From: Escherichia phage vB_Eco_TB37
Sequence record: OZ035850
DNA length: 64,000 bases
Strand: one strand, 5' to 3'
A model generated the notes under the pieces. The model did not search any database and had not been told where the DNA came from. It saw only the letters and a program-made list of their open reading frames with translations. Positions 1,894 through 30,969 of the stretch are shown in pieces. Position 1 is the stretch's first letter; each line of letters opens with the position of its first letter. A program made the position numbers and the translations under genes.

Positions 1894-1928
1894 TACGGTG
1901 CATTCTAAAGGCCTGTTTCGACAGGCCA

Positions 1929-1936
1929 TATAAATA
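1929..1936 (+). promoter_or_regulatory. Late promoter motif TATAAATA upstream of gene 19
   Basis: Exact TATAAATA. Confidence 0.6.
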
Positions 1937-1987
1937 CACTATATCCTTAATTCTTTAATTCTATATGCCCTAGGTTAAACATAGGGA

Positions 1988-1995
1988 TATAAATA
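1988..1995 (+). promoter_or_regulatory. Late promoter motif TATAAATA, 15 nt upstream of gene 19 ATG
   Basis: Exact TATAAATA. Confidence 0.7.
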
Positions 1996-2009
1996 CTACA
2001 GAGGCTAAT

Positions 2010-2501
2010 ATGTTTGTAGATGATGTAACACGAGCGTTTGAATCTGGTGATTTTGCTCGACCTAACTTATTCCAAGTAGAAATTTCTTATCTTGGACAAA
2101 ATTTTACGTTTCAATGTAAAGCCACTGCTTTACCAGCTGGTATTGTAGAAAAAATTCCAGTCGGATTTATGAACCGTAAAATTAACGTAGCAGGTGATCG
2201 TACATTCGATGACTGGACTGTTACAGTAATGAACGATGAGGCACATGATGCTCGCCAGAAGTTCGTTGATTGGCAAAGCATTGCTGCTGGTCAAGGAAAC
2301 GAAATTACTGGTGGAAAACCTGCAGAGTATAAAAAGAGCGCTATCGTTCGTCAATATGCTCGTGACGCTAAAACAGTAACAAAAGAAATTGAAATTAAAG
2401 GTCTGTGGCCTACTAACGTGGGTGAACTTCAATTAGATTGGGATTCAAACAATGAAATCCAAACCTTTGAAGTAACTCTTGCTCTCGATTATTGGGAATA
2501 A
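2010..2501 (+). CDS. 19: Tail tube protein gp19
   Basis: 163 aa, ATG start, two TATAAATA late promoter motifs upstream, synteny after gp18. Confidence 0.93.
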   Translation: MFVDDVTRAFESGDFARPNLFQVEISYLGQNFTFQCKATALPAGIVEKIPVGFMNRKINVAGDRTFDDWTVTVMNDEAHDARQKFVDWQSIAAGQGNEITGGKPAEYKKSAIVRQYARDAKTVTKEIEIKGLWPTNVGELQLDWDSNNEIQTFEVTLALDYWE

Positions 2502-2533
2502 AATGAATGGGGAGAAATCCCCATCCTGCTTAA

Positions 2534-4158
<1,625 letters not shown>

Positions 4159-4159
<1 letters not shown>

Positions 4160-4407
4160 TGGAAGGTTTAATTGAAGCTATTAAATCAAACGACCTCGTA
4201 GCCGCTCGTAAATTATTTGCTGAAGCCATGGCTGCAAGAACGATTGATTTAATTAAAGAAGAAAAAATCGCTATCGCTCGTAATTTCTTAATCGAAGGTG
4301 AAGAACCTGATGACGAGGATGATGACGAAGACGAAGATAGTGATGATAAAGACGACAAAAAAGACAAAGACTCTGATGAAGATGACGAAGACGAGGATGA
4401 TGAATAA
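4159..4407 (+). CDS. 67: Prohead core protein gp67 with acidic Asp/Glu-rich C-terminus
   Basis: 82 aa, TAATG overlap with gp20 stop, acidic tail, synteny. Confidence 0.85.
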
Positions 4408-4832
4408 TGCTTCTGATCCCTGAAACTCATGAATTAGTTCTCGAGAATGTCGAAGCACTTATTCCTGAAGCACAGGGTCGCTTTGACGAATTGTCTTCTG
4501 CTTTAAATAAAGACGATATAAATACAATTGTCGAGAATATGCTTGATGATGAAACTGATTTAGCGGTTGCATTAGCTTCTATTAATGAAAATATGCCGCT
4601 AAATGAATTTATCGTTAAACATGTTTCCGCCCGTGGTGAAATTACACGTACTAAAGACCGCAAGACGCGTGAACGTAATGCATTTCAAACCACTGGGCTG
4701 TCTAAAGCAAAACGTAGACAAATTGCTCGTAAAGCTACCAAAACGAAGATTGCCAATCCAGCAGGTCAATCTCGTGCTCAGCGTAAGCGTAAAAAAGCTC
4801 TTAAACGCCGTAAAGCATTAGGATTAAGCTAA
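4407..4832 (+). CDS. 68: Prohead core protein gp68
   Basis: 141 aa, TAATG-coupled to gp67, basic C-terminus, synteny. Confidence 0.85.
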
Positions 4833-5470
4833 TGAATGAACCCCAATTACTAATTGAAACTTGGGGTCAACCTGGCGAAATTATTGATGGCGTGCCAATG
4901 CTTGAATCTCATGATGGAAAAGACCTAGGTTTAAAACCTGGTTTATACATCGAAGGAATATTCATGCAAGCGGAAGTCGTCAATAGAAATAAACGTCTTT
5001 ATCCAAAACGCATATTAGAAAAAGCGGTAAAAGACTATATCAATGAGCAAGTTTTAACTAAACAAGCTCTCGGAGAATTAAATCATCCTCCACGCGCTAA
5101 TGTTGACCCGATGCAAGCCGCTATCATTATAGAAGATATGTGGTGGAAAGGAAATGACGTATACGGACGAGCTCGTGTTATTGAAGGTGACCATGGTCCT
5201 GGAGATAAATTAGCAGCTAATATTCGTGCCGGATGGATTCCAGGAGTTTCTTCTCGTGGATTAGGTTCATTGACTGACACAAATAAAGGTTATCGTATCG
5301 TAAACGAAGGATTCAAATTAACTGTAGGTGTTGATGCAGTATGGGGTCCAAGTGCTCCAGATGCATGGGTAACTCCTAAGGAAATTACCGAATCACAGAC
5401 GGCGGAAGCCGATACAAGTGCCGATGACGCCTATATGGCTCTCGCAGAGGCCATGAAAAAAGCGTTATAA
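4832..5470 (+). CDS. 21: Prohead core protease gp21
   Basis: 212 aa, TAATG-coupled to gp68, synteny in head module. Confidence 0.9.
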   Translation: MNEPQLLIETWGQPGEIIDGVPMLESHDGKDLGLKPGLYIEGIFMQAEVVNRNKRLYPKRILEKAVKDYINEQVLTKQALGELNHPPRANVDPMQAAIIIEDMWWKGNDVYGRARVIEGDHGPGDKLAANIRAGWIPGVSSRGLGSLTDTNKGYRIVNEGFKLTVGVDAVWGPSAPDAWVTPKEITESQTAEADTSADDAYMALAEAMKKAL

Positions 5471-5473
5471 ATA
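5466..5473 (+). promoter_or_regulatory. Late promoter motif upstream of gene 22
   Basis: Exact TATAAATA overlapping gene 21 stop. Confidence 0.65.
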
Positions 5474-5500
5474 TTATTATCTAAACAACAGGACTACAAA

Positions 5501-6310
5501 ATGCTTAAAGAACAACTGATTGCCGAAGCGCAGAAAATTGATGCTTCCGTTGCTCTTGATAGTATTTTCGAATCAGTTAATATTTCTCCGGAAGCAAAAG
5601 AAACTTTCGGCACTGTATTCGAAGCTACCGTCAAGCAGCACGCCGTTAAATTAGCTGAATCTCATATCGCTAAAATTGCTGAAAAAGCAGAAGAAGAAGT
5701 AGAAAAAAATAAAGAAGAAGCCGAAGAAAAAGCTGAGAAGAAAATCGCTGAGCAAGCTTCTAAATTCATTGACCATCTTGCGAAAGAATGGCTCGCTGAA
5801 AATAAATTAGCAGTTGATAAAGGCATCAAAGCCGAACTGTTTGAATCCATGCTTGGTGGATTAAAAGAGCTCTTTGTTGAACACAACGTTGTTGTTCCAG
5901 AAGAATCGGTTGATGTTGTAGCTGAAATGGAAGAAGAGCTGCAAGAACATAAAGAAGAATCAGCTCGTCTGTTCGAAGAACTCAATAAGCGTGACGCATA
6001 TATCAATTATGTGCAGCGTGAAGTGGCATTGAGCGAAAGTACTAAAGATCTGACTGAGTCTCAAAAAGAAAAAGTCTCTGCTCTGGTCGAAGGTATGGAT
6101 TATTCAGATGCATTCTCAAGTAAATTGAGTGCAATCGTAGAAATGGTGAAGAAATCTAATAAAGATGAAAGCACTATTACTGAGAGTATAAATACTCCTG
6201 ATACTGAAGCAGCCGGACTGAATTTCGTCACTGAAGCTGTAGAAGATAAAGCTGCACAGGGTGCAGAAGATATTGTAAGTGTATATGCGAAAGTCGCATC
6301 TCGTTTCTAA
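5501..6310 (+). CDS. 22: Prohead core scaffold protein gp22
   Basis: 269 aa, highly charged coiled-coil-like protein, TATAAATA upstream, synteny. Confidence 0.9.
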   Translation: MLKEQLIAEAQKIDASVALDSIFESVNISPEAKETFGTVFEATVKQHAVKLAESHIAKIAEKAEEEVEKNKEEAEEKAEKKIAEQASKFIDHLAKEWLAENKLAVDKGIKAELFESMLGGLKELFVEHNVVVPEESVDVVAEMEEELQEHKEESARLFEELNKRDAYINYVQREVALSESTKDLTESQKEKVSALVEGMDYSDAFSSKLSAIVEMVKKSNKDESTITESINTPDTEAAGLNFVTEAVEDKAAQGAEDIVSVYAKVASRF

Positions 6311-6328
6311 TTTTAAAGGTTAACACAA

Positions 6329-7894
6329 ATGACTATCAAAACTAAAGCTGAACTTTTGAACAAATGGAAGCCATTACTGGAAGGTGAAGGTTTACCGGAA
6401 ATTGCTAATAGCAAACAAGCGATTATCGCTAAAATCTTTGAAAACCAGGAAAAAGATTTCCAGACAGCTCCAGAATATAAAGACGAAAAAATTGCTCAGG
6501 CATTTGGTTCTTTCTTAACAGAAGCTGAAATCGGTGGTGACCACGGTTACAATGCTACCAACATCGCTGCAGGTCAGACTTCTGGCGCAGTAACTCAGAT
6601 TGGCCCAGCTGTTATGGGTATGGTACGTCGTGCTATTCCTAACCTGATTGCTTTCGATATTTGTGGTGTTCAGCCGATGAACAGCCCAACCGGTCAGGTA
6701 TTCGCACTCCGCGCGGTATATGGTAAAGATCCGATCGCTGCCGGTGCTAAAGAAGCATTCCACCCAATGTATGGTCCAGATGCAATGTTCTCTGGTCAGG
6801 GTGCTGCTAAGAAATTCCCAGCTCTGGCTGCTAGCACAGAAACCACAGTAGGTGATATCTATACTCACTTCTTCCAGGACACTGGTACTGTGTATCTGCA
6901 AGCTTCTGCTCAAGTAACAATTAGTGCAAGCGCAACTGATGCAGATAAATTAGATGCTGAAATTAAGAAACAAATGGAAGCTGGTGCACTGGTAGAAATC
7001 GCTGAAGGTATGGCTACTTCTATCGCTGAACTCCAGGAAGGTTTCAACGGTTCTACCGATAACCCATGGAATGAAATGGGCTTCCGTATCGATAAACAAG
7101 TTATCGAAGCTAAATCTCGCCAGCTGAAAGCTGCTTACTCTATCGAATTAGCACAAGACCTCCGCGCTGTTCACGGTATGGATGCTGACGCTGAACTGTC
7201 TGGTATTCTGGCTACAGAAATTATGCTGGAAATCAACCGTGAAGTTGTTGATTGGATTAACTACTCCGCACAGGTTGGTAAATCTGGTATGACCCTGACT
7301 CCGGGTTCTAAAGCTGGTGTATTTGACTTCCAGGATCCGATTGATATTCGTGGTGCTCGCTGGGCGGGTGAATCCTTTAAAGCTCTGTTGTTCCAGATTG
7401 ACAAAGAAGCAGTTGAAATTGCTCGTCAAACCGGTCGCGGCGAAGGTAACTTCATTATCGCTTCTCGTAACGTAGTTAACGTACTGGCTTCTGTTGATAC
7501 TGGCATTTCTTATGCTGCTCAAGGTTTGGCAACCGGTTTTAATACTGATACTACTAAGTCAGTATTTGCAGGTGTTCTGGGTGGTAAATACCGTGTATAT
7601 ATCGACCAGTATGCTAAACAGGATTATTTCACTGTAGGTTATAAAGGTCCGAACGAAATGGATGCTGGTATTTACTATGCTCCATATGTAGCTCTGACTC
7701 CGCTGCGTGGTTCCGATCCGAAGAACTTCCAACCAGTAATGGGATTCAAAACTCGTTACGGTATCGGTATCAACCCATTTGCAGAATCCGCTGCTCAGGC
7801 TCCGGCTTCTCGCATTCAGAGTGGTATGCCTTCTATCCTGAACAGCCTTGGTAAGAACGCTTACTTCCGCCGTGTATATGTTAAAGGTATCTAA
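6329..7894 (+). CDS. 23: Major capsid protein gp23
   Basis: 521 aa, high-expression codon usage, followed by hairpin terminator, synteny. Confidence 0.95.
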   Translation: MTIKTKAELLNKWKPLLEGEGLPEIANSKQAIIAKIFENQEKDFQTAPEYKDEKIAQAFGSFLTEAEIGGDHGYNATNIAAGQTSGAVTQIGPAVMGMVRRAIPNLIAFDICGVQPMNSPTGQVFALRAVYGKDPIAAGAKEAFHPMYGPDAMFSGQGAAKKFPALAASTETTVGDIYTHFFQDTGTVYLQASAQVTISASATDADKLDAEIKKQMEAGALVEIAEGMATSIAELQEGFNGSTDNPWNEMGFRIDKQVIEAKSRQLKAAYSIELAQDLRAVHGMDADAELSGILATEIMLEINREVVDWINYSAQVGKSGMTLTPGSKAGVFDFQDPIDIRGARWAGESFKALLFQIDKEAVEIARQTGRGEGNFIIASRNVVNVLASVDTGISYAAQGLATGFNTDTTKSVFAGVLGGKYRVYIDQYAKQDYFTVGYKGPNEMDAGIYYAPYVALTPLRGSDPKNFQPVMGFKTRYGIGINPFAESAAQAPASRIQSGMPSILNSLGKNAYFRRVYVKGI

Positions 7895-7908
7895 TCTTTG
7901 ACGATTTA

Positions 7909-7938
7909 AGGGACCTTCGGGTCCCTTTAGTTGTTTTT
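7909..7938 (+). terminator. Intrinsic terminator after gene 23 (GGGACC-TTCG-GGTCCC then T-rich)
   Basis: Perfect 6-bp GC stem, UUCG tetraloop, T-tract. Confidence 0.7.
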
Positions 7939-7942
7939 ATGG

Positions 7943-7950
7943 TATAAATA
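7943..7950 (+). promoter_or_regulatory. Late promoter motif upstream of gene 24
   Basis: Exact TATAAATA. Confidence 0.7.
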
Positions 7951-7977
7951 AATCATATAAACCAAAAGGAAAGCGCA

Positions 7978-9261
7978 ATGGCTAAAATCAACGAACTTCT
8001 GCGCGAATCAACCACAACGAATAGCAACTCAATCGGTCGCCCAAATCTCGTTGCTTTGACTCGCGCTACCACTAAATTAATATATTCTGACATTGTAGCA
8101 ACGCAAAGAACTAATCAACCTGTTGCTGCTTTTTATGGTATCAAATACCTTAACCCAGACAATGAATTTACATTTAAAACTGGTGCTACTTATGCTGGCG
8201 AAGCTGGATATGTAGACCGAGAACAAATCACAGAATTAACAGAAGAGTCTAAATTAACTCTCAATAAAGGCGATTTATTCAAATATAATAATATCGTTTA
8301 TAAAGTATTAGAAGATACACCATTTGCTGATATTGAAGAAAGCGATTTAGAATTAGCTCTTCAGATTGCAATTGTTCTTTTAAAGGTTCGTTTATTTTCT
8401 GACGCAGCATCAACAAGCAAATTTGAAAGCTCTGATAGTGAAATTGCGGATGCTAGATTCCAGATTAATAAATGGCAAACCGCCGTTAAATCTCGTAAAC
8501 TTAAAACTGGCATCACAGTTGAATTAGCACAAGATTTAGAAGCAAATGGATTCGATGCTCCTAATTTCTTGGAAGATTTGCTTGCAACCGAAATGGCGGA
8601 TGAAATCAATAAAGATATTCTGCAGTCTTTGATTACAGTGTCAAAACGCTATAAAGTTACAGGAATTACTGATAGTGGATTCATCGATTTGAGTTATGCA
8701 TCTGCACCTGAAGCGGGTCGTTCATTATATCGAATGGTATGTGAAATGGTTTCACATATCCAAAAAGAATCAACTTATACAGCAACATTTTGTGTAGCTT
8801 CAGCTCGTGCTGCTGCGATTCTTGCTGCATCAGGTTGGTTAAAACATAAACCGGAAGATGATAAATATCTTTCACAAAATGCCTACGGGTTCTTAGCTAA
8901 TGGTTTACCGCTTTATTGCGATACTAACAGCCCATTAGATTATGTAATCGTTGGTGTAGTAGAAAATATCGGTGAAAAAGAAATTGTTGGATCAATTTTC
9001 TATGCTCCGTATACAGAAGGTCTCGACTTAGATGACCCTGAACATGTAGGTGCATTTAAAGTTGTTGTTGATCCAGAAAGCTTACAGCCGTCTATCGGTT
9101 TATTAGTTAGATATGCTTTATCAGCAAATCCTTATACCGTAGCAAAAGATGAAAAAGAAGCAAGAATAATTGACGGTGGAGACATGGATAAAATGGCTGG
9201 TCGTTCAGATTTGTCTGTTTTATTAGGTGTTAAATTACCAAAAATTATTATTGATGAATAA
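7978..9261 (+). CDS. 24: Capsid vertex protein gp24
   Basis: 427 aa, TATAAATA upstream, synteny after gp23. Confidence 0.92.
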   Translation: MAKINELLRESTTTNSNSIGRPNLVALTRATTKLIYSDIVATQRTNQPVAAFYGIKYLNPDNEFTFKTGATYAGEAGYVDREQITELTEESKLTLNKGDLFKYNNIVYKVLEDTPFADIEESDLELALQIAIVLLKVRLFSDAASTSKFESSDSEIADARFQINKWQTAVKSRKLKTGITVELAQDLEANGFDAPNFLEDLLATEMADEINKDILQSLITVSKRYKVTGITDSGFIDLSYASAPEAGRSLYRMVCEMVSHIQKESTYTATFCVASARAAAILAASGWLKHKPEDDKYLSQNAYGFLANGLPLYCDTNSPLDYVIVGVVENIGEKEIVGSIFYAPYTEGLDLDDPEHVGAFKVVVDPESLQPSIGLLVRYALSANPYTVAKDEKEARIIDGGDMDKMAGRSDLSVLLGVKLPKIIIDE

Positions 9262-23134: not shown

Positions 23135-23164
23135 ACTATAACACAACACGAGGGACTTGTAAAC
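23135..23164 (-). promoter_or_regulatory. Early sigma70-type promoter (-35 GTTTAC, 18-bp spacer, -10 TATAGT) for the 96-aa ORF
   Basis: Hexamers read on minus strand; part of a 53-bp repeat shared with the alc promoter. Confidence 0.65.
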
Positions 23165-25221
23165 TACATCTTGAACTTTTTAGACATTCCGTTGATGTTA
23201 ACCAAAGAAGCCAAGATTTGAGAAACTTCGTTTTCCTCTTCTTTTGATTCTTCTACAAGGAATTGATTAAATCCAGCCATTGGACGAACTTCACCAGTTT
23301 CCATTAAATGGTCGCCATCATATACTGATTCTTCTAATTGTTCAGAAGGAGGAACGATTGTACCTTCGATTAGATACTTGTTATAAGCAGTTTCTTTCAT
23401 AAAGTACGTACTTACTTTATTAATCTTCAGTAAAATTCCACGCGGTAGAATAACTTCAGCTTCTGATGGAAATCCTGATAAATGACCTGGAACGATAACT
23501 TTGATTCGCTCAGCTCCTTTAATTACCATACCCACGCTAGTTTCAGCATCTTCAATGGCATATGTAGAATGACTACCCATATGCATTAAATCTTCTGCAT
23601 CAACGGAACCTTCTCCTTCGCCAGAAAATACTGCGCCGGAATCATCTAGAGCCATATAGTTTTTACCATGCTCACCGAAGATATTTGGTTTAAGTGATGT
23701 CGATACGAAGTTCTTGAAATAGAACATTTTGTTTTCAATGTTATGACGCAAAGTTTTAAAGGTAACTTCTTGTCCACGGTAAAGTGTAGTTCCTGGAGGA
23801 AGAACTGATCCTTTGGCAAAGGCAGAATCCAACGTCTCGATGTGCTTAATAGCTCGTTCCATATATTCTTCACGGGTAGAATCTGGTTTACCCAAAAGGA
23901 ACGAGTTCATTTCAACATATGAATCTGCACAATAATCTTCAATTACATCAGATTCAGCTTGGGTTAATCCTTTTGGAGTTACTTCGGTGCTTGCGTATTC
24001 ATATGCCTGGGCAGCAGATTCATTAATCAATTTATAAATGCCATTCATGACAAATTGAATAATAGCTGTCTTTTCATCTGGCGTAGCTTTAGAACCTTTA
24101 ACTAAATCATTAATAATTTTCTTAATAACATCAAAGCTATTAGAAATATTAATGTCAGCAAGATCGCTTAAAATTTTATCAGTTTTATAATCAAAGAATT
24201 CTTTATTCTTTAAATATTCTTGAGAACCTTGATATGTTATATCGCTCTGCAACTTGATAGATGGATCACGTAAACGTGCATGGGCTAATGCAATATGATT
24301 TCGGAAGTTTTCTAGTTCATAATCGTTAGATTTAAAACGAGAAGCACTTCTCATACCACCGATAGCTCCTTTGCTAAAGTTTGAACCAATCTGGATAACC
24401 CCGGAGTTCATCGGACCTTCTGCTTTATATACCGGAACTTTAGATTCAAACTCTTGATATTTCTTGGCAGCGAAGCTATCACCCTGGAGTGAAGCATCAA
24501 CAGTAGAATATTGAGCTTGTGCTGCTAATCGACGACTAATTTTAGTTTTCTGAATAACAGCTTGATCCGTGCGCTTATCATTTTCTAAAGCAATAGAAGC
24601 AGCAACAGCAACAGCTTTAGGAACAGCATTACCTGTTTTAACGTCTACATAAACATCACCAACCTTTGATTCAACTTTTGTGAATAACTCAGTTGAAATA
24701 GGAGGTACACCTGGAATGTCTTCTAAATTGGCATTTTTACGGTAAACCATAATATATGCATATTTCTTATCATAGTCCCAGATTTCCTTTAAGAGAACAT
24801 ATCGACCTGCTCCTTTAGTACGTACTAAACGGTCAGCAATAACTTGCATTTGACGAGCTGCGCCATTTGTTTTACTCTTTAGTACGCGGAATAGGCATGC
24901 GTCGATTTTATACTGTTTCATTGTTTGAAGAGCAGTATCAAAAACAGCATTAATGACGCCAATTGGATTTCCACCCAAGTTTCTAAGCTTAACCAGCGAT
25001 AATTTCTCGTTGACACCTATCATTACGATATGCATCATTTTATCGCCCGGCTTAACGTTTTTATTTGTATCACCGCCAGAGGTGTATGTACAAAATCTAA
25101 ATCCAGGAAGCACGCTTTCTTCACCGGCTTGAATAGCAAAAATTTGAGGTATTTTATGCTTAGGATTTAAGTTAACAACCGGCGCCGAAGCGCCGTCAAA
25201 TAATTCTGTAATAAGTTCCAT
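23164..25221 (-). CDS. Alt-like ADP-ribosyltransferase paralog, 685 aa
   Basis: N-terminus MELITELFD and C-terminal R-S-E motifs (YRGQ, FVSTSL, EAEVILPRG) shared with adjacent alt; AAGGA RBS, 3 nt after alt stop. Confidence 0.8.
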   Translation of the reverse strand: MELITELFDGASAPVVNLNPKHKIPQIFAIQAGEESVLPGFRFCTYTSGGDTNKNVKPGDKMMHIVMIGVNEKLSLVKLRNLGGNPIGVINAVFDTALQTMKQYKIDACLFRVLKSKTNGAARQMQVIADRLVRTKGAGRYVLLKEIWDYDKKYAYIMVYRKNANLEDIPGVPPISTELFTKVESKVGDVYVDVKTGNAVPKAVAVAASIALENDKRTDQAVIQKTKISRRLAAQAQYSTVDASLQGDSFAAKKYQEFESKVPVYKAEGPMNSGVIQIGSNFSKGAIGGMRSASRFKSNDYELENFRNHIALAHARLRDPSIKLQSDITYQGSQEYLKNKEFFDYKTDKILSDLADINISNSFDVIKKIINDLVKGSKATPDEKTAIIQFVMNGIYKLINESAAQAYEYASTEVTPKGLTQAESDVIEDYCADSYVEMNSFLLGKPDSTREEYMERAIKHIETLDSAFAKGSVLPPGTTLYRGQEVTFKTLRHNIENKMFYFKNFVSTSLKPNIFGEHGKNYMALDDSGAVFSGEGEGSVDAEDLMHMGSHSTYAIEDAETSVGMVIKGAERIKVIVPGHLSGFPSEAEVILPRGILLKINKVSTYFMKETAYNKYLIEGTIVPPSEQLEESVYDGDHLMETGEVRPMAGFNQFLVEESKEEENEVSQILASLVNINGMSKKFKM

Positions 25222-25224
25222 GAT

Positions 25225-27321
25225 TTATCCTTGAACGAACTTGTAAGGCATGTTTGTAATATCTATGCAAGACGCAATAATTCCAAGAGATGATTCTACT
25301 TTCTGTTTAATATTTGATGAAACAAATGATGCAAAGTCAACTCTGTCTTCTATTTCAATATCACCTGTCATTGCAACTACTTCGCCGGTTTCCATTAAAC
25401 GGTCTCCGTCATAGATTACCGATTCGGTGAGTTCTTCCGTGGTCATAACTTCAGCTTGAATGAGTTTTGTATTATTAGATGTTGTTCCGTCATTATTAGA
25501 AGCATCGGTTATTTTATTAACTTTGACCATCAATCCGCGCGGTAGAATAACTTCAGCTTCTGTTGCTATTCCGAGACTTCCTGGATATACAACATTAACT
25601 TTATGAGCTCCATCAATTGCCCATCCTATTTGAACTTTAACGTATTCAGGATTTTCTTTATACGCTCTTATTTCGTTTGGATTAATAGTTATTCCTTCTT
25701 CATTTTTATCAACTGTTAATTCATTACGAGCTTCTGGTTCTAAAAGACCAATACCAGCATGTGTAATTCCAAAACGTCCAAAAATGATAGGAGTTAAAGA
25801 AGTAGATACAAAATTTCTGAAATAGAACACTTTATTTTTAACTAGTGCTTCGTATATAGGAGCAGTCATACTTTGAGCACGATAAACTGTAATGCCTTCC
25901 GGTATGCGGTCACCATTTTCAAAAGCTGAATCTAAATTATTTATAGCAGATTCAATTTCTTTTTCACTCATTACATCATATCGTTCTGGATTGTAACGAC
26001 CTAAAAGAAGATTATTAATGTCTGTATATCCTGAACCGCAATATTCTCTAATGCCACGCTTTTGTGATGGAGTATATTTAGAACCATCACGGGCAATAGT
26101 AATATCAATCATTGGACCAGCACCAATTCCAGAAAAGCTATAAATCATTCGTTTGAGGAATTTAGTTTTTGCTGCATTCCAGGCATTTTTAGTTATTTCT
26201 CCCCAGACTTCATCTGGCTGCCCTTTACGAGTTTTATTATGTTTATCAAGCCAATTATCTTTATATTCTTCAAAGAGTTGATTAACAGCTGCTGCGTATT
26301 TCTCTAAACATTTTATTGAAGTAGTTGGTTCATTTTTAATCGCATTAAGAATTACATCTTTAATTTTTTCAGAAACTTCATTAACCTCACTTTTTGAAAA
26401 GAATTTATAGTCATAATGAAGTTCATTCGCAGTTCCTTCGGCAATAATTTTTGCTGCCTTAGTTTTAGAAGCTAATGAATTAATTCCAAGCTTCATTTCT
26501 TCTGCTTCGGGAATTAAAGGAGCGGTAGCAGGTTTATTGAAATTAGCTGCGGTAGATTCATACTTCTGGAATAATTCACTTTCAAATCTAGAAGATTCCA
26601 ATGATTGACTTTGCGCAATTGCTCTACGGGAAATTTTAACTTTAACGATTACAGCTTGGTCAGAACGTTTATCATTTTCTTGTGCAATAGATGCTGCAAT
26701 TGCCTCATTTTTAGTTACTTGAGCTCCAGTATCTTTATTGATATAAACATCGCCGACTTTCGATTCAACTTTAGTAAAGAGCTCGGTACTAATTTCCGGA
26801 ACTCCTGGAATGTCTTCTAGTGATACATTTTTGCGATGTATAAGAATATATGCATACTTTTTATCATAATCCCAGAGTTCCTTAAGAAGGACGTATCTGC
26901 CACCTGAACGACTACGGATAAGTCTATCAGCAATAACTTGAATTTGTCGAGCTTGACCAGCGGTTTTAGACTTAAGAATACGAAGCATACAAGCATCAAT
27001 TTTATACTGACGCATTGTTTGCATTGCAACAGTAAAAACTGAATTGATATAATTAATTGGGCTTGGACCGAGACCTTTTAATTTAGCAATTGAACCTTTG
27101 GCAGTTAATGTAAAAGGAACAATATGCATCATTTTATCGCCCATCTTTAAATCGCGATTAGTATCACCTCCAGATGTATAGGTACATAAACGAAATCCTG
27201 GTTGTTCAATTGCATCATCAACGTGAACTGAAAAAATTTGTGGTATTTTCTTCTTTGGATTTAAGTTTGTAATCGGAAGAGTAGTATCTTCGTCAAATAA
27301 TTCTGTAATGAGTTCCATCAT
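25225..27321 (-). CDS. alt: Alt ADP-ribosyltransferase (head-packaged), 697-698 aa
   Basis: N-terminal MELITELFDEDTTLP, ART catalytic motifs YRAQ / FVSTSL / EAEVILPRG, position next to gene 30, late promoter motif upstream. Confidence 0.88.
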   Translation of the reverse strand: MMELITELFDEDTTLPITNLNPKKKIPQIFSVHVDDAIEQPGFRLCTYTSGGDTNRDLKMGDKMMHIVPFTLTAKGSIAKLKGLGPSPINYINSVFTVAMQTMRQYKIDACMLRILKSKTAGQARQIQVIADRLIRSRSGGRYVLLKELWDYDKKYAYILIHRKNVSLEDIPGVPEISTELFTKVESKVGDVYINKDTGAQVTKNEAIAASIAQENDKRSDQAVIVKVKISRRAIAQSQSLESSRFESELFQKYESTAANFNKPATAPLIPEAEEMKLGINSLASKTKAAKIIAEGTANELHYDYKFFSKSEVNEVSEKIKDVILNAIKNEPTTSIKCLEKYAAAVNQLFEEYKDNWLDKHNKTRKGQPDEVWGEITKNAWNAAKTKFLKRMIYSFSGIGAGPMIDITIARDGSKYTPSQKRGIREYCGSGYTDINNLLLGRYNPERYDVMSEKEIESAINNLDSAFENGDRIPEGITVYRAQSMTAPIYEALVKNKVFYFRNFVSTSLTPIIFGRFGITHAGIGLLEPEARNELTVDKNEEGITINPNEIRAYKENPEYVKVQIGWAIDGAHKVNVVYPGSLGIATEAEVILPRGLMVKVNKITDASNNDGTTSNNTKLIQAEVMTTEELTESVIYDGDRLMETGEVVAMTGDIEIEDRVDFASFVSSNIKQKVESSLGIIASCIDITNMPYKFVQG

Positions 27322-27341
27322 ATCCTCTCTAGTGTTTATTC

Positions 27342-27349
27342 TATTTATA
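27342..27349 (-). promoter_or_regulatory. Late promoter motif (minus strand) upstream of alt
   Basis: Plus-strand TATTTATA about 20 nt upstream of alt ATG. Confidence 0.6.
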
Positions 27350-27370
27350 AAATTAAAGGCCCGAAGGCCT

Positions 27371-27559
27371 TTAATAATCTATTGGTAAGAGAGTACGATA
27401 TATTTCAAACTTTGGACCTTTTTCATAAGCATCAAAAGTTTCTGTGAATTTATTATAAGCATATGCATCTATAAATTCAATCATGATTTGTGATACAGAA
27501 GTAGAAACATCTCCACCTTCTTTTTGAGCCACGACAATTGTTTCTAAGTAAGCTTTCAT
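27371..27559 (-). CDS. Hypothetical protein, 62 aa
   Basis: ATG overlapping ligase stop (ATGA), followed by hairpin. Confidence 0.55.
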   Translation of the reverse strand: MKAYLETIVVAQKEGGDVSTSVSQIMIEFIDAYAYNKFTETFDAYEKGPKFEIYRTLLPIDY

Positions 27560-29019
27560 AGACCAGTTACCTCATGAAAATCACCAAATACATCTTCGAA
27601 TGTATTAGCTTTAGTTTTATCTTCACGTAAACGAATCGCAATCGGAAGAAATAATTTAACGTAATCAGTGCGGCCATCAGATTTTAACCAACCGTTGCAT
27701 TCGCACTCTAGAATTTTTCCAATATAATAATTTTGATTTTCCATAATGCGAGTACGGTCAAGTTCATGTGATTTTACGCCGGCTTTATCTTTTAAGCCTG
27801 AACCCGCATTTACCTTAATTTTTCCACACTCTGACTCAAGAATAAATCCACCTGCTTTAGTAGGGTCTTTACGGTGAGGATAAATTCCTACAATTTTTAA
27901 ATCAACATCAATTACTTCTTTAAATTTATAGAGATTTTTTGAACGAGCATTTTCCCATAATCCATCGATATTTTTGAGAATAATACCTTCAAGACCTTGG
28001 TCAATATACTTTTTATAAATTACCTTAGCTTCATCTAGGTTATTTACTACTTGGTTTTCAATTAAAATTACTTTATCATAGCCTGATGTCATTTGTTCTA
28101 GTTTAGAAAAACGTACATCATATTTCAAACGAAATGCTGGAAGACCGTATATTTCTACCAACGGAACATAATCCCAGACCTGAAACTTCATGCATTGTGC
28201 TTCTTTTTCTGAAATAGTTCCCTTTAAAGATTTATTAGCGATTCCATTAGAAGTAGTACGTGATTCAGCTACTTCAGCAAACTCTTTAGCTTTACTAATT
28301 TCAGGATAAGCATCAAAAAGAAAATCTAGGCCTTCTGGCTCCTTTTTAACTTGCTCATGGTATACCAATTCGCCATCAATTAACACACCTTCTGGATGAA
28401 TCTGGCGGGCTTCAGCGGTCATTTTGATTAACTCTTCCTTAAGAAGATCTAATCCTAGATATTCATTACCAGCTCGTGATAAAAGACGGACATCATCTAA
28501 TTCATCACCTCTAACTTCAGCAAAACACCGAGCTCCATCTGCTTTTAATTGTGCAAAGGCTGGAAATTTGATATTCTTACTAATGCCTTTTTCATCATAA
28601 GAACTTGCGAGCATTTGAGGTTGTTCAGGAATTAAACCTGGCCAAACTTTGTTTGCAATAGATACTGAAGCACCACATTCAAGGTCTCGCATCATCACTC
28701 GACGCAAAACTTCAACATCATCTTTTTTACCGTCAGTAATATAACCTACTAATTCCTCAATTGCCGCATTTCCAGTCAATTTCCGAGTAGCTAATGTAAA
28801 TTCAATGAAGTCAAGCATATCGGTAAGAGTCAACATTCCAAAACTCTGGGTAGCAATACCAGGTTTAGGCCATTTCTTGATATAATACTGCAACCCACGA
28901 GAATAAGTCAGACGATATACTCGTTTAAGCAATTCATTATCTTTATTCTTTTCAAGAATTGCTTGCTTCTGCTTAGTTGAACCAATAGATGCTATTTCGT
29001 TCAGAATTTTAAGAATCAT
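27556..29019 (-). CDS. 30: ATP-dependent DNA ligase gp30
   Basis: 487 aa, adenylation lysine motif (KADGAR), T4 ligase N-terminus MILKILNEIASIGSTKQKQ. Confidence 0.93.
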   Translation of the reverse strand: MILKILNEIASIGSTKQKQAILEKNKDNELLKRVYRLTYSRGLQYYIKKWPKPGIATQSFGMLTLTDMLDFIEFTLATRKLTGNAAIEELVGYITDGKKDDVEVLRRVMMRDLECGASVSIANKVWPGLIPEQPQMLASSYDEKGISKNIKFPAFAQLKADGARCFAEVRGDELDDVRLLSRAGNEYLGLDLLKEELIKMTAEARQIHPEGVLIDGELVYHEQVKKEPEGLDFLFDAYPEISKAKEFAEVAESRTTSNGIANKSLKGTISEKEAQCMKFQVWDYVPLVEIYGLPAFRLKYDVRFSKLEQMTSGYDKVILIENQVVNNLDEAKVIYKKYIDQGLEGIILKNIDGLWENARSKNLYKFKEVIDVDLKIVGIYPHRKDPTKAGGFILESECGKIKVNAGSGLKDKAGVKSHELDRTRIMENQNYYIGKILECECNGWLKSDGRTDYVKLFLPIAIRLREDKTKANTFEDVFGDFHEVTGL

Positions 29020-29285
29020 TGTTCATCCTTTAGAGTTTGGTTTACAGCTCTATTATAAATCAATTCATCATTAAGCTCAGTCAAAGACCTATGATATGTG
29101 GTTCTAACTTTATTTCCTTGCATCCAGTGCTTGACGTAAATGAAACCTTGCTCTACACATTTTTTAAAAATTCGTTCGTCTTTTTGAGCTCGGAATTCTG
29201 GATTGCATCTAAAAAATTGATTTACGTGACCATAATCACGTGTAGTATTACCTTCATTTTCATAAATAGTGTGAACAACAAACAT
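29016..29285 (-). CDS. Hypothetical protein (position of T4 30.1)
   Basis: 89-aa ORF coupled to neighbours. Confidence 0.6.
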   Translation of the reverse strand: MFVVHTIYENEGNTTRDYGHVNQFFRCNPEFRAQKDERIFKKCVEQGFIYVKHWMQGNKVRTTYHRSLTELNDELIYNRAVNQTLKDEQ

Positions 29286-30121
29286 TAGAATGCTCCTTGG
29301 AAAATATTATCACCACAAGTAGGTCTATTATACAAATACTCTATACCACCGGGTTTAATATAGTTCCATGTCTGAAACGGATGCGTCTGATATGGATGAT
29401 ATGGATTATAAGGATTAAATCCAGGAGTTCTCCAGGTAGTGTTCCAACGAAAAGAATCATTTTTAATCATCTTCTCGATTGTATCTTTTATAGCTTTTTC
29501 ACGATCAAAACTTTCTTTATTTTCCTTCAATGGAAAAAGCTTATTCTCTACATCATTCCATGTATAAACTCGCTGTGCAGTTTTTGGAATACTGTCACGC
29601 TCTCCTCGAGCCATCCAATACACAGGAACACGTAATATTTCACTCGCATGATCGCAGTGGTGAGCGAGATCGTCAATATAACAAATTACGTTATATTTCT
29701 CTTTTGCCTTTTTGAACAACTCTTCTTTTGAAGAATCATGACCACACATCATTACTTCTGAGAAGGCACCAGGAAAAAGAGCATTCAAATTAAATTGACG
29801 ATTCAACAGAGCGTCAATAGAATCACCCAATGCTGTAACAGCTACAAAATTATAATCTTCTTTTAATTTGTTAATTACACACAGAGCATCTTTATATGGA
29901 GACAAGTAACGAATAAAATCTGATCGATTGTATTTTTCAATTAGCTTAACGCCAAGTTCTTCATCACAGTTAAAGAGTTTACCAGGAGAAATAAATTTCT
30001 CATCTTGGATCATTTTTAAAATATGTTCTAACGGAAGATTATATTTCTGAGCAAAATAAGGAAGGCCTGATTGCCAGCTTAAACATACTCCATCAATATC
30101 AGTTAAAATAGTAGGCTTCAT
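29285..30121 (-). CDS. HAD-superfamily hydrolase-like protein (position of T4 30.2)
   Basis: 278 aa; N-terminal ILTDIDGV matches HAD motif I (DxDGx). Confidence 0.6.
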   Translation of the reverse strand: MKPTILTDIDGVCLSWQSGLPYFAQKYNLPLEHILKMIQDEKFISPGKLFNCDEELGVKLIEKYNRSDFIRYLSPYKDALCVINKLKEDYNFVAVTALGDSIDALLNRQFNLNALFPGAFSEVMMCGHDSSKEELFKKAKEKYNVICYIDDLAHHCDHASEILRVPVYWMARGERDSIPKTAQRVYTWNDVENKLFPLKENKESFDREKAIKDTIEKMIKNDSFRWNTTWRTPGFNPYNPYHPYQTHPFQTWNYIKPGGIEYLYNRPTCGDNIFQGAF

Positions 30122-30582
30122 AGAGAGTCTCTTAATAGGTTTAACACATCAATAAATTCAGCTTCGGTTAGTATTGTATCATCTTTTGTTAGACCACTAG
30201 CCATGCTGTGCTTCAAAACTTTTCCTTTCGAGGCTTGTAATGCATCACGAAAGCCCTTGTTTTGGATCGCTGCTTCAAAATATGCATTTGTGTATAATTC
30301 TTTCCACGCCGGGGAGTATCTTGAAAATGGAACTCCAAGCCAGAAGAGGGTCCCATGGTCCTGAGCTCTAGCATAAGACCTTCCAGCTTGTTGGGCGGCA
30401 AGCCCGGATAATCCAAATATACGACGTTGTTGTTCAACGTTTTTCACCTTACATCCTTGGAGGAATCCTTCGAGACCTCCGAATTGAATACCATCCATGA
30501 CGAAAGGCCATTGGGCAAAATTACTTAATGCGCATGATGGCCATCTAAAATTACTTCTAATCTCTAACTCAGACATTTTCAA
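30118..30582 (-). CDS. NADAR-like (YbiA/DUF1768-type) putative ADP-ribose processing protein (position of T4 30.3)
   Basis: 154 aa; SNFAQWP...DG motif and overall size resemble the NADAR family; from memory, not a search. Confidence 0.5.
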   Translation of the reverse strand: MKMSELEIRSNFRWPSCALSNFAQWPFVMDGIQFGGLEGFLQGCKVKNVEQQRRIFGLSGLAAQQAGRSYARAQDHGTLFWLGVPFSRYSPAWKELYTNAYFEAAIQNKGFRDALQASKGKVLKHSMASGLTKDDTILTEAEFIDVLNLLRDSL

Positions 30583-30775
30583 TGCTTATAATTTCAACAT
30601 CAGCCCAATGACCATAGCAAGGAAGACGAAATTCAACTGGCCAGTTAGGGTCCTTTTCTAATATAATAGACTTAACTTGTGGTTCTTCGTGTTCATCAGT
30701 ATACGGATTTTTATCTGTTACTTTATATGTGACCTTAATGTACTGAATTCCAAAAATCTTATTAATTATATTCAT
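30569..30775 (-). CDS. Hypothetical small protein, 68 aa
   Basis: ORF in tightly coupled early gene string. Confidence 0.5.
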   Translation of the reverse strand: MNIINKIFGIQYIKVTYKVTDKNPYTDEHEEPQVKSIILEKDPNWPVEFRLPCYGHWADVEIISIENV

Positions 30776-30969
30776 ACTAATTCCTTTAATCCGTAGATAG
30801 GAGATAATTCATCACCCATACGAAGGTCTTCATTTCCATCTACCCAGGAAACAATATAAGCCTCTTTTATTTGAATACCACTCCATTTAAATGGAGGTAG
30901 AACCTTAGAAATTAATCCAGGTATACCAACTCCCTTTAATTCAACAGTTTGACCTAAAAAGAATTTCAT
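30772..30969 (-). CDS. Hypothetical small protein, 65 aa
   Basis: ORF in tightly coupled early gene string. Confidence 0.5.
   Translation of the reverse strand: MKFFLGQTVELKGVGIPGLISKVLPPFKWSGIQIKEAYIVSWVDGNEDLRMGDELSPIYGLKELV

What the first reader, a model, noticed from the sequence alone, without database searches (positions are those of the whole stretch)
27556..30582. DNA ligase followed by HAD-like and NADAR-like genes, next to the ADP-ribosyltransferases
Immediately downstream of ligase are a 278-aa protein opening with a HAD motif I (ILTDIDGV) and a 154-aa protein whose SNFAQWP...DG motif and size resemble the NADAR (YbiA/DUF1768) family, which is linked to ADP-ribose processing. Together with the two Alt-type ARTs a few hundred bp away, this looks like a locus able to both write and process ADP-ribose marks, possibly against host ADP-ribosylating defence toxins such as DarT. 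The family assignments are motif recall, not a search.
Basis: inference. Interest (0 to 1): 0.6.

Follow-up and report, generated by a model that had tools for sequence, protein, structure and literature searches.

The report
T4 genes 30–30.3: ligase, HAD, AdfN
This is the well-known DNA ligase gene block of a T4-type phage; its small NADAR-like gene is the already characterised anti-DarT enzyme AdfN, its neighbour is a real but uncharacterised nucleotidase-like HAD phosphatase, and neither forms a unit with the nearby ADP-ribosyltransferases.

Summary
The window is a Tequatrovirus, 99.7% identical to Escherichia phage slur07 and 97% to T4 over this region. The finding covers T4 genes 30 (ligase), 30.1, 30.2 and 30.3, all on the minus strand.

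gp30.3 is 150/152 identical to T4 gp30.3. That protein is AdfN, a NADAR-superfamily DNA ADP-ribosyl-guanine glycohydrolase that published work shows is necessary and sufficient for T4 to resist DarTG1. E36, K43, the phage-type H123 and the C-terminal helix are all intact here, and the model matches only the three solved NADARs.

gp30.2 is a HAD phosphohydrolase with all four motifs (D8/D10, T96, K132, D150-D151) and a C1 cap. Its closest relatives are the NT5C 5'(3')-deoxyribonucleotidases. I found no paper on its function.

The "write and erase ADP-ribose" locus idea is not supported. A hairpin and a late-promoter consensus separate alt from the ligase block. Only 14 of 80 viral NADAR loci have an Alt within 8 kb and only 19 have the HAD. 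Published substrates also differ: Alt modifies proteins, AdfN acts on guanine in DNA.

The HAD's constant partner is the ligase (72 of 77 loci).

Verdict: already known, low interest. The one open point is what gp30.2 does.

The parts
30118..30576 (-). Gene 30.3 = adfN, a NADAR-superfamily DNA ADP-ribosyl-guanine glycohydrolase of 152 aa from the ATG.
   Evidence: It is 150/152 identical to T4 gp30.3 and hits Pfam PF08010 at E 5e-70. The AF2 model has pLDDT 93. Foldseek's top three PDB hits are YbiA 2b3w, PnNADAR 8bau and G. lovleyi NADAR 8bat. E36 and H123 are invariant and K43 nearly so in 35 homologues. The function of the T4 protein was shown experimentally.
29285..30121 (-). Gene 30.2, a HAD-superfamily phosphohydrolase of 278 aa. 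Residues 1-195 form an NT5C-like core with a C1 cap. A long helix (197-220) and a disordered Pro/Tyr/Asn-rich tail follow.
29016..29285 (-). Gene 30.1, a DUF3045 protein of 89 aa with unknown function.
   Evidence: It hits Pfam PF11243 at E 2.9e-64 and is 99% identical to T4 gp30.1. It is present in only 24 of 77 HAD loci.
27556..29019 (-). Gene 30, the ATP-dependent DNA ligase of 487 aa.
   Evidence: It hits Pfam DNA_ligase_A_M at E 2.4e-32 and is 482/487 identical to T4 ligase.
27371..27559 (-). Gene alt.1, 62 aa, Pfam 'Phage_blade', function unknown. It is the last gene of the ligase block.
   Evidence: It hits PF24647 at E 7.5e-29. T4 annotates the equivalent gene as Alt.1.
27347..27382 (-). 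Terminator-like hairpin (UUAAAGGCC-UUCG-GGCCUUUAA followed by a U-rich run) that overlaps the alt.1 stop codon.
   Evidence: The sequence is. The fold has an energy of -14.5 kcal/mol and z -3.0 against shuffles. The consensus terminator scan did not list it.
27342..27349 (-). T4 late-promoter consensus TATAAATA, about 20 nt upstream of the alt start codon.
   Evidence: Its role as a late promoter is inferred from established T4 biology, not tested here.
25225..27321 (-). alt, an Alt-type ADP-ribosyltransferase (698 aa as listed; it probably starts at the second ATG). It is context, not part of the same unit.
   Evidence: It hits PF03496 at E 1.5e-37 and is 70% identical to T4 Alt, with a diverged centre.
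23164..25221 (-). A second, full-length Alt-like ADP-ribosyltransferase (685 aa). It is context only.
   Evidence: It hits PF03496 at E 6.1e-20 and is 41% identical to both T4 Alt and its neighbour. T4 carries only the remnants alt.-1/alt.-2 at this position.

Best explanation
The region is the gene 30 block of a T4-type phage: 30.3 > 30.2 > 30.1 > 30 > alt.1 on the minus strand. It ends at a hairpin just before a separately promoted late alt unit.

gp30.3 is AdfN, a free-standing NADAR enzyme. It cuts the N-glycosidic bond between ADP-ribose and guanine in phage DNA, which reverses the replication block imposed by the host DarT1 toxin. This was shown for T4 and is inferred here from 99% identity and intact catalytic residues.

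gp30.2 is a Mg2+-dependent HAD phosphomonoesterase of the NT5C (5'(3')-deoxyribonucleotidase)-like clade. Its enclosed C1 cap and conserved aromatic residues point to a small nucleotide substrate, most likely a (deoxy)nucleoside monophosphate. The fold and motifs are shown here; the substrate is inferred.

gp30.2 travels with the ligase rather than with the NADAR. The neighbouring Alt ARTs sit there through T4 gene order and are not functional partners.
For: Identity of the block:
- 99.7% to slur07 and 97% to T4, with gene-by-gene identities of 97-99% and matching annotations.

AdfN:
- Genetic and biochemical proof in T4: deletion costs about 4 logs of plaquing on DarTG1, E36A and K43A are inactive, and the purified protein removes ADP-ribose from DNA.
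- In vitro guanosine-ADPr hydrolysis by T4 gp30.3.
- Transposon insertions in 30.3 are lost under DarTG1.
- In this window E36, K43 and H123 are present and the C-terminal helix 138-151 is intact. The fold matches the NADARs.

HAD:
- Motifs I-IV are conserved.
- AF2 gives pLDDT above 90 over residues 1-195, with a helical cap at roughly 16-86.
- Family members reach Pfam NT5C above its threshold.
- W16, F43 and Y64 align with mouse cdN F20, F46 and Y67.

No shared module:
- Searches give the neighbour counts.
- Seven T4-like genomes keep HAD-ligase together while the NADAR lies 55-65 kb away.
- Hairpin plus TATAAATA precede alt.
Against: - No experiment was done on this exact phage. Its AdfN differs from T4's by R74H and I124M; the second lies next to H123, although Met is the family consensus there.
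- T4-like genomes are strongly syntenic, so the HAD-ligase adjacency may reflect ancestry rather than function.
- The 80 and 77 loci are the best-scoring hits, not an unbiased sample.
- Transcript boundaries are inferred from sequence motifs only.
Confidence: 0.85

Rival explanations
1. One reading: the HAD, the NADAR and the two Alt ARTs form one ADP-ribose write-and-process module. The HAD would work downstream of the NADAR, for example by dephosphorylating released ADP-ribose or ribose-5-phosphate.
For: The genes lie within 7.5 kb on one strand. In 38 of 77 HAD loci a NADAR sits directly upstream. One non-syntenic contig (L111) has a distant HAD 680 bp upstream of a NADAR with no ligase nearby.
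Against: Only 19 of 80 NADAR loci have the HAD and only 14 have an Alt. Seven T4-like genomes keep HAD-ligase together but carry the NADAR 55-65 kb away. In T4, AdfN alone supplied from a plasmid rescues RB69. The published DarTG1 transposon screen reports only 30.3/adfN, and 30.2 is not mentioned anywhere in that text. A hairpin and a late-promoter consensus set alt apart. NADARs did not reverse thymidine-linked ADP-ribose, and no protein substrate is reported in the passages read.
Confidence: 0.05
2. gp30.2 is a nucleic-acid end-healing phosphatase, for example a DNA 3'-phosphatase, that prepares nicks for the adjacent DNA ligase. This would parallel the T4 Pnkp plus RNA ligase repair pair.
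Against: The model has a roughly 70-residue helical C1 cap over the active site. From general knowledge of HAD enzymes, such caps usually admit small molecules, whereas the Pnkp phosphatase is capless. The best sequence and structure matches are mononucleotidases. The phage already encodes Pnkp.
Confidence: 0.1
3. gp30.2 is a counter-defence or pool-sanitising enzyme that acts on a non-canonical small phosphoester, such as a defence-made signalling or chain-terminating nucleotide, NMN, or a sugar phosphate, rather than on ordinary dNMPs.
Against: No direct evidence was found. The family is kept even in distant T4-like phages next to a core replication gene, which suits a housekeeping role better. 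No paper reports a defence phenotype.
Confidence: 0.25

Closest known systems
T4 AdfN (gp30.3), the phage clade of the NADAR superfamily (Pfam PF08010)
   Same: 150/152 residues are identical, the length is the same, E36, K43 and H123 are present, and the gene position is the same.
   Different: Two substitutions, R74H and I124M. This allele has not been tested.
DarG1 / DarT1-associated NADAR antitoxins (G. lovleyi 8bat, E. coli C7) and E. coli YbiA (2b3w)
   Same: They share the YbiA fold (Foldseek TM 0.56-0.68), the SNF...E..FQ..K motif, and guanine-ADP-ribose hydrolysis.
   Different: AdfN has no adjacent toxin and lacks the N-terminal extension. It has His where DarG1-type NADARs have Asp and YbiA-type have Glu. 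It does not rescue uninfected cells from DarT1.
NT5C-family 5'(3')-deoxyribonucleotidases (cdN 2jao/2i7d, mdN 1mh9, S. epidermidis 3bwv)
   Same: HAD core, four-helix C1 cap, DxDGV motif I with an aromatic residue 8 positions after the nucleophile, and motifs II-IV.
   Different: Identity is only 16-20%. gp30.2 itself falls below the Pfam NT5C threshold. It carries an extra roughly 80-residue C-terminal helix and disordered tail that is absent from cellular enzymes and from many phage homologues. Its substrate is unknown.
DarTG-type ART plus hydrolase operons
   Same: An ADP-ribosyltransferase and an ADP-ribose hydrolase are encoded within a few kb of each other.
   Different: Here the two are separate transcription units by sequence signals, their adjacency is not conserved, and their published substrates differ (protein versus DNA guanine).

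Membership tests
NADAR superfamily (gp30.3) | [quoted passage not shown] | tested here: met
   AF2 pLDDT is 93.2. The only Foldseek PDB hits with probability of at least 0.96 are YbiA, PnNADAR and G. lovleyi NADAR.
NADAR superfamily (gp30.3) | Profile match to a NADAR-family model | tested here: met
   PF08010 Phage_30_3 at E 5e-70. The family profile hits YbiA at E 0.0058. 3 of 35 homologues also hit PF08719 NADAR, best 1.5e-7. The query itself does not hit PF08719.
NADAR superfamily (gp30.3) | [quoted passage not shown] | tested here: met
   E36 and H123 are invariant and K43 nearly invariant in 35 homologues, and all three are present in the window protein.
NADAR superfamily (gp30.3) | Intact C-terminal helix (the RB69 frameshift variant lacking it is inactive) | tested here: met
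   The protein is full length at 152 aa, with helix 138-151 in the model. The RB69 defect is described.
NADAR superfamily (gp30.3) | Hydrolysis of guanine-linked ADP-ribose on DNA; protection from DarTG1 | not testable with these tools
   This was shown for the 99%-identical T4 protein.
HAD superfamily (gp30.2) | Motif I DxDx(T/V), with a second Asp typical of phosphatases | tested here: met
   D8-I-D10-G-V12. D8, D10 and G11 are invariant in 35 homologues, and D8 and D10 remain invariant in the 43-member broader set.
HAD superfamily (gp30.2) | Motif II Ser/Thr, motif III Lys, motif IV acidic pair | tested here: met
   T96 is nearly invariant (Ser in a few), K132 is invariant, and D150-D151 are nearly invariant to invariant.
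HAD superfamily (gp30.2) | Rossmann-like core with a cap inserted after motif I (C1) | tested here: met
HAD superfamily (gp30.2) | Direct hit of the protein to a curated HAD model | tested here: not met
   No Pfam or NCBIfam family was hit at E <= 1 apart from noise. Homologues hit Hydrolase, HAD_2 and NT5C.
NT5C 5'(3')-deoxyribonucleotidase family (gp30.2) | Match to Pfam PF06941 above its gathering score | tested here: inconclusive
   The query gives no hit. 16 of 43 distant family members hit it, best 4.7e-9; P0300 scores 36.4 bits against a cut-off of 24.8. The link is transitive only.
NT5C 5'(3')-deoxyribonucleotidase family (gp30.2) | Aromatic base-binding residues in motif I and the cap (human cdN F18, F44, Y65; recalled from the literature, not checked here) | tested here: met
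   W16, F43 and Y64 align with mouse cdN F20, F46 and Y67 in the profile alignment. W16 is invariant in the T4-like set and nearly invariant in the broad set; Y64 is invariant and F43 nearly invariant in the T4-like set.
NT5C 5'(3')-deoxyribonucleotidase family (gp30.2) | dNMP phosphatase activity | not testable with these tools
   No publication on gp30.2 was found.
ART plus hydrolase module (DarTG-like write/erase pair) | Conserved adjacency of the transferase and the hydrolase | tested here: not met
   An Alt lies within 8 kb of the NADAR in 14 of 80 viral loci.
ART plus hydrolase module (DarTG-like write/erase pair) | Co-transcription | tested here: not met
   A hairpin (-14.5 kcal/mol, z -3.0) and a TATAAATA late-promoter consensus lie between alt.1 and alt. 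This rests on sequence signals only; there are no transcript data.
ART plus hydrolase module (DarTG-like write/erase pair) | Hydrolase reverses the mark made by the transferase | not testable with these tools
   In the literature, Alt modifies RNA polymerase alpha and other proteins (note), whereas NADARs act on guanine bases.

The most novel reading that the evidence does not exclude
gp30.2 is not a generic dNMP nucleotidase. It would be a ligase-coupled or counter-defence phosphatase with a specific, so far unrecognised substrate, for example a nucleotide that poisons ligation or replication, or a host defence signal. That would explain why it stays beside the DNA ligase across very distant T4-like phages while every other gene in the 30.x block comes and goes.
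Probability: 0.15. Interest if true: 0.5.

Novelty: already known. Interest (0 to 1): 0.15.

Why it matters
The central idea of the finding, a phage NADAR that undoes a host ADP-ribosylating defence, is correct. It was, however, predicted in 2012 and shown experimentally in 2024-2025 for the near-identical T4 protein, so the window adds nothing new on that point. Two things are useful. First, it corrects the record: the HAD, the NADAR and Alt are not one module. Second, gp30.2 is an uncharacterised NT5C-like phosphatase with all catalytic residues conserved and a tight link to the DNA ligase. It is one of the roughly 100 T4 genes still without a function and is easy to test biochemically.

Tried and rejected
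- Direct Pfam, NCBIfam and PDB sequence searches with gp30.2 gave nothing usable. The assignment needed family profiles, structure prediction and transitive hits.
- The afdb50 fold library was not available.
- Literature searches for gp30.2 or for a T4 HAD nucleotidase found nothing specific.
- The sigma-70 promoter scan was uninformative: 42 sites against 35.8 expected. The terminator scan missed the alt.1 hairpin.
- I considered the HAD a partner of the NADAR and rejected this on the neighbour counts.
- I considered a Pnkp-like DNA-end phosphatase and rated it low because of the C1 cap and better matches to mononucleotidases.
- The neighbourhoods of distant HAD homologues without a ligase (L082: clamp-loader-like AAA protein and a Pol III fragment; L111: a NADAR but nothing else recognisable) gave no functional clue.
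- Longer proteins that carry the HAD domain (P0206, P0253, P0308) have extensions with no Pfam match.
Full report
**What is there**

The window is a Tequatrovirus genome segment. Bases 27300-30800 are 99.7% identical to Escherichia phage slur07 and 97.3% to T4. 672 phage records match the region, and 496 of them cover at least 80% of it.

All genes lie on the minus strand. Against the T4 and slur07 annotations the order of transcription is:
- 30.3 (30118-30576)
- 30.2 (29285-30121)
- 30.1 (29016-29285)
- 30, the DNA ligase (27556-29019)
- alt.1 (27371-27559)
- alt (25225-27321)
- a second full-length Alt-like gene (23164-25221)

Identities to the T4 proteins are 99% for the ligase, 99% for gp30.1, 97% for gp30.2 and 99% for gp30.3.

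Four corrections apply. 30.2 and 30.3 are upstream of the ligase, not downstream. Gene 30.1 lies between the ligase and 30.2. The 154-aa length depends on a TTG two codons before the annotated ATG; the ATG overlaps the end of 30.4. Gene alt.1 fills most of the gap between the ligase and alt.

**gp30.3**

The protein hits Pfam Phage_30_3 at E 5e-70. A profile of 35 homologues hits E. coli YbiA over the SNF...EGFLQ..K motif, and three homologues also hit Pfam NADAR. The AlphaFold model is confident (pLDDT 93). Its only meaningful PDB matches are the three solved NADARs: YbiA, Phytophthora NADAR and Geobacter lovleyi NADAR.

The function is already published.
- Johannesman, Carlson and LeRoux mapped T-even resistance to DarTG1 to gene 30.3 and renamed it adfN. 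Deleting it costs T2 and T4 about four logs of plaquing on DarTG1. Supplying it in trans rescues RB69. E36A and K43A are inactive. The purified protein removes ADP-ribose from DNA. RB69 is sensitive because a frameshift removes the last helix (PMC11257639).
- Cihlova et al. showed guanosine-specific hydrolysis by T4 gp30.3 in vitro. They also describe the His that replaces the Glu or Asp of other NADARs (PMC11125620; see also PMC11543638).
- A transposon screen found 30.3/adfN to be conditionally essential under DarTG1.

In the window protein E36, K43 and H123 are present and the C-terminal helix is intact. The two differences from T4 are R74H, in a variable loop, and I124M, which is the family consensus residue. 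I infer that it does the same job.

**gp30.2**

The protein gives no direct Pfam, NCBIfam or PDB sequence hit, and PHROGs files it as unknown. The HAD assignment still holds, on four lines of evidence.
- In 35 homologues D8, D10, G11 and K132 are invariant, and T96, D150 and D151 nearly so. These are HAD motifs I to IV, and the second Asp is typical of phosphatases.
- The model is confident over residues 1-195. It shows a Rossmann-like core with a helical cap inserted after motif I.
- A profile search of 1.84 billion representatives finds 1443 relatives at E <= 1e-3. Among 43 distant ones, 16 hit Pfam NT5C, some above its threshold. Their joint profile hits only deoxyribonucleotidases at the top of the PDB list.

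W16, F43 and Y64 align with mouse cdN F20, F46 and Y67. As I recall the literature, these correspond to base-contacting residues of human cdN.

Residues 196-278 form a long helix and a disordered Pro/Tyr/Asn-rich tail. About 200-aa homologues lack this extension.

**Is it one ADP-ribose locus?**

Three lines of evidence say it is not.

1. Transcription signals. The alt.1 stop codon sits in a UUCG-loop hairpin followed by a U-rich run (-14.5 kcal/mol, z -3.0). The T4 late-promoter consensus TATAAATA follows, about 20 nt before the alt start. The T4 record notes that Alt is carried in the particle. That fits a late gene set apart from the early ligase block.

2. Gene neighbourhoods.
   - In 77 viral contigs with a gp30.2 homologue, a ligase lies within about 1.5 kb in 72. 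A gp30.3 homologue lies within 8 kb in 38, an Alt in 56 and gp30.1 in 24.
   - Three further metagenomic loci show the same HAD-ligase pairing, one with the gene order reversed.
   - In 80 viral contigs with a gp30.3 homologue, only 19 have the HAD, 19 a ligase and 14 an Alt within 8 kb.
   - Seven T4-like genomes keep HAD-ligase together while the NADAR lies 55-65 kb away.

3. Published substrates differ. Alt modifies RNA polymerase and other proteins. AdfN acts on guanine in DNA, is sufficient on its own, and was the gene reported in the DarTG1 screen.

**Verdict**

However, the NADAR is the already characterised AdfN, and the module idea fails. What remains open is the substrate and role of gp30.2 and why it stays next to the ligase. 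Strong T4 synteny could explain the adjacency by itself. Novelty: already known. Interest: low.

Noticed in passing
window 25225-27321 (-): The Alt orthologue is a mosaic relative to T4 Alt. Residues 1-246 and the last ~100 are about 99% identical, while the middle, including the ART domain, is far more diverged (about 70% overall). A recent preprint reports that Alt variants of T4 and Bas37 are not interchangeable against Mokosh type I.
   Followed up: partly
window 23164-25221 (-): A second, full-length Alt-like ART (41% identical to both T4 Alt and its neighbour; the R, STS and ExE motifs are present by eye). It sits where T4 has only the decayed duplicates alt.-1/alt.-2. It has no late-promoter consensus of its own directly upstream.
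   Followed up: partly
window 27342-27382 (-): A UUCG-loop hairpin overlaps the alt.1 stop codon and is followed immediately by TATAAATA and the alt ribosome-binding site. The consensus terminator scan missed it.
   Followed up: yes
window 29285-29700 (-), gp30.2 residues ~196-278: A C-terminal extension: a long helix and then a disordered Pro/Tyr/Asn-rich tail. It is absent from ~200-aa homologues. Many tails end in a shared G-x-G-IEY-L-x-x-QPT motif, which could be a docking peptide.
   Followed up: no
window 30213-30437 (-): A 74-aa ORF nested in another frame inside 30.3. T4 annotates it as 30.3'. I did not test whether it is conserved as a coding sequence.
   Followed up: no
L024/L108, L072/L110, L041/L116, L078/L136, L040/L144, L027/L150, L032/L153: In seven T4-like genomes the gp30.3-type NADAR is not beside the HAD-ligase pair but 55-65 kb away. 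The NADAR gene has therefore moved or been acquired more than once.
   Followed up: partly
L111 6736-8456: A 166-kb viral contig has a distant gp30.2-like HAD (E 3e-19) 680 bp upstream of a gp30.3-type NADAR, with no ligase or Alt nearby. It is the only such case among the non-syntenic NADAR loci.
   Followed up: partly
proteins P0253 (591 aa), P0308 (660 aa), P0206 (430 aa): These are longer proteins that carry the gp30.2-like HAD domain fused to regions with no Pfam match. The partners might hint at function.
   Followed up: partly
window 1900-8000 (+) and whole window: TATAAATA occurs 18 times against 9 expected. The sites cluster on the plus strand at 1929-7950, consistent with late promoters of a structural-gene block.
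   Followed up: no
window 27371-27559 (-): alt.1 hits the recent Pfam family 'Phage_blade' (PF24647, E 7.5e-29). I do not know what that name refers to.
   Followed up: no
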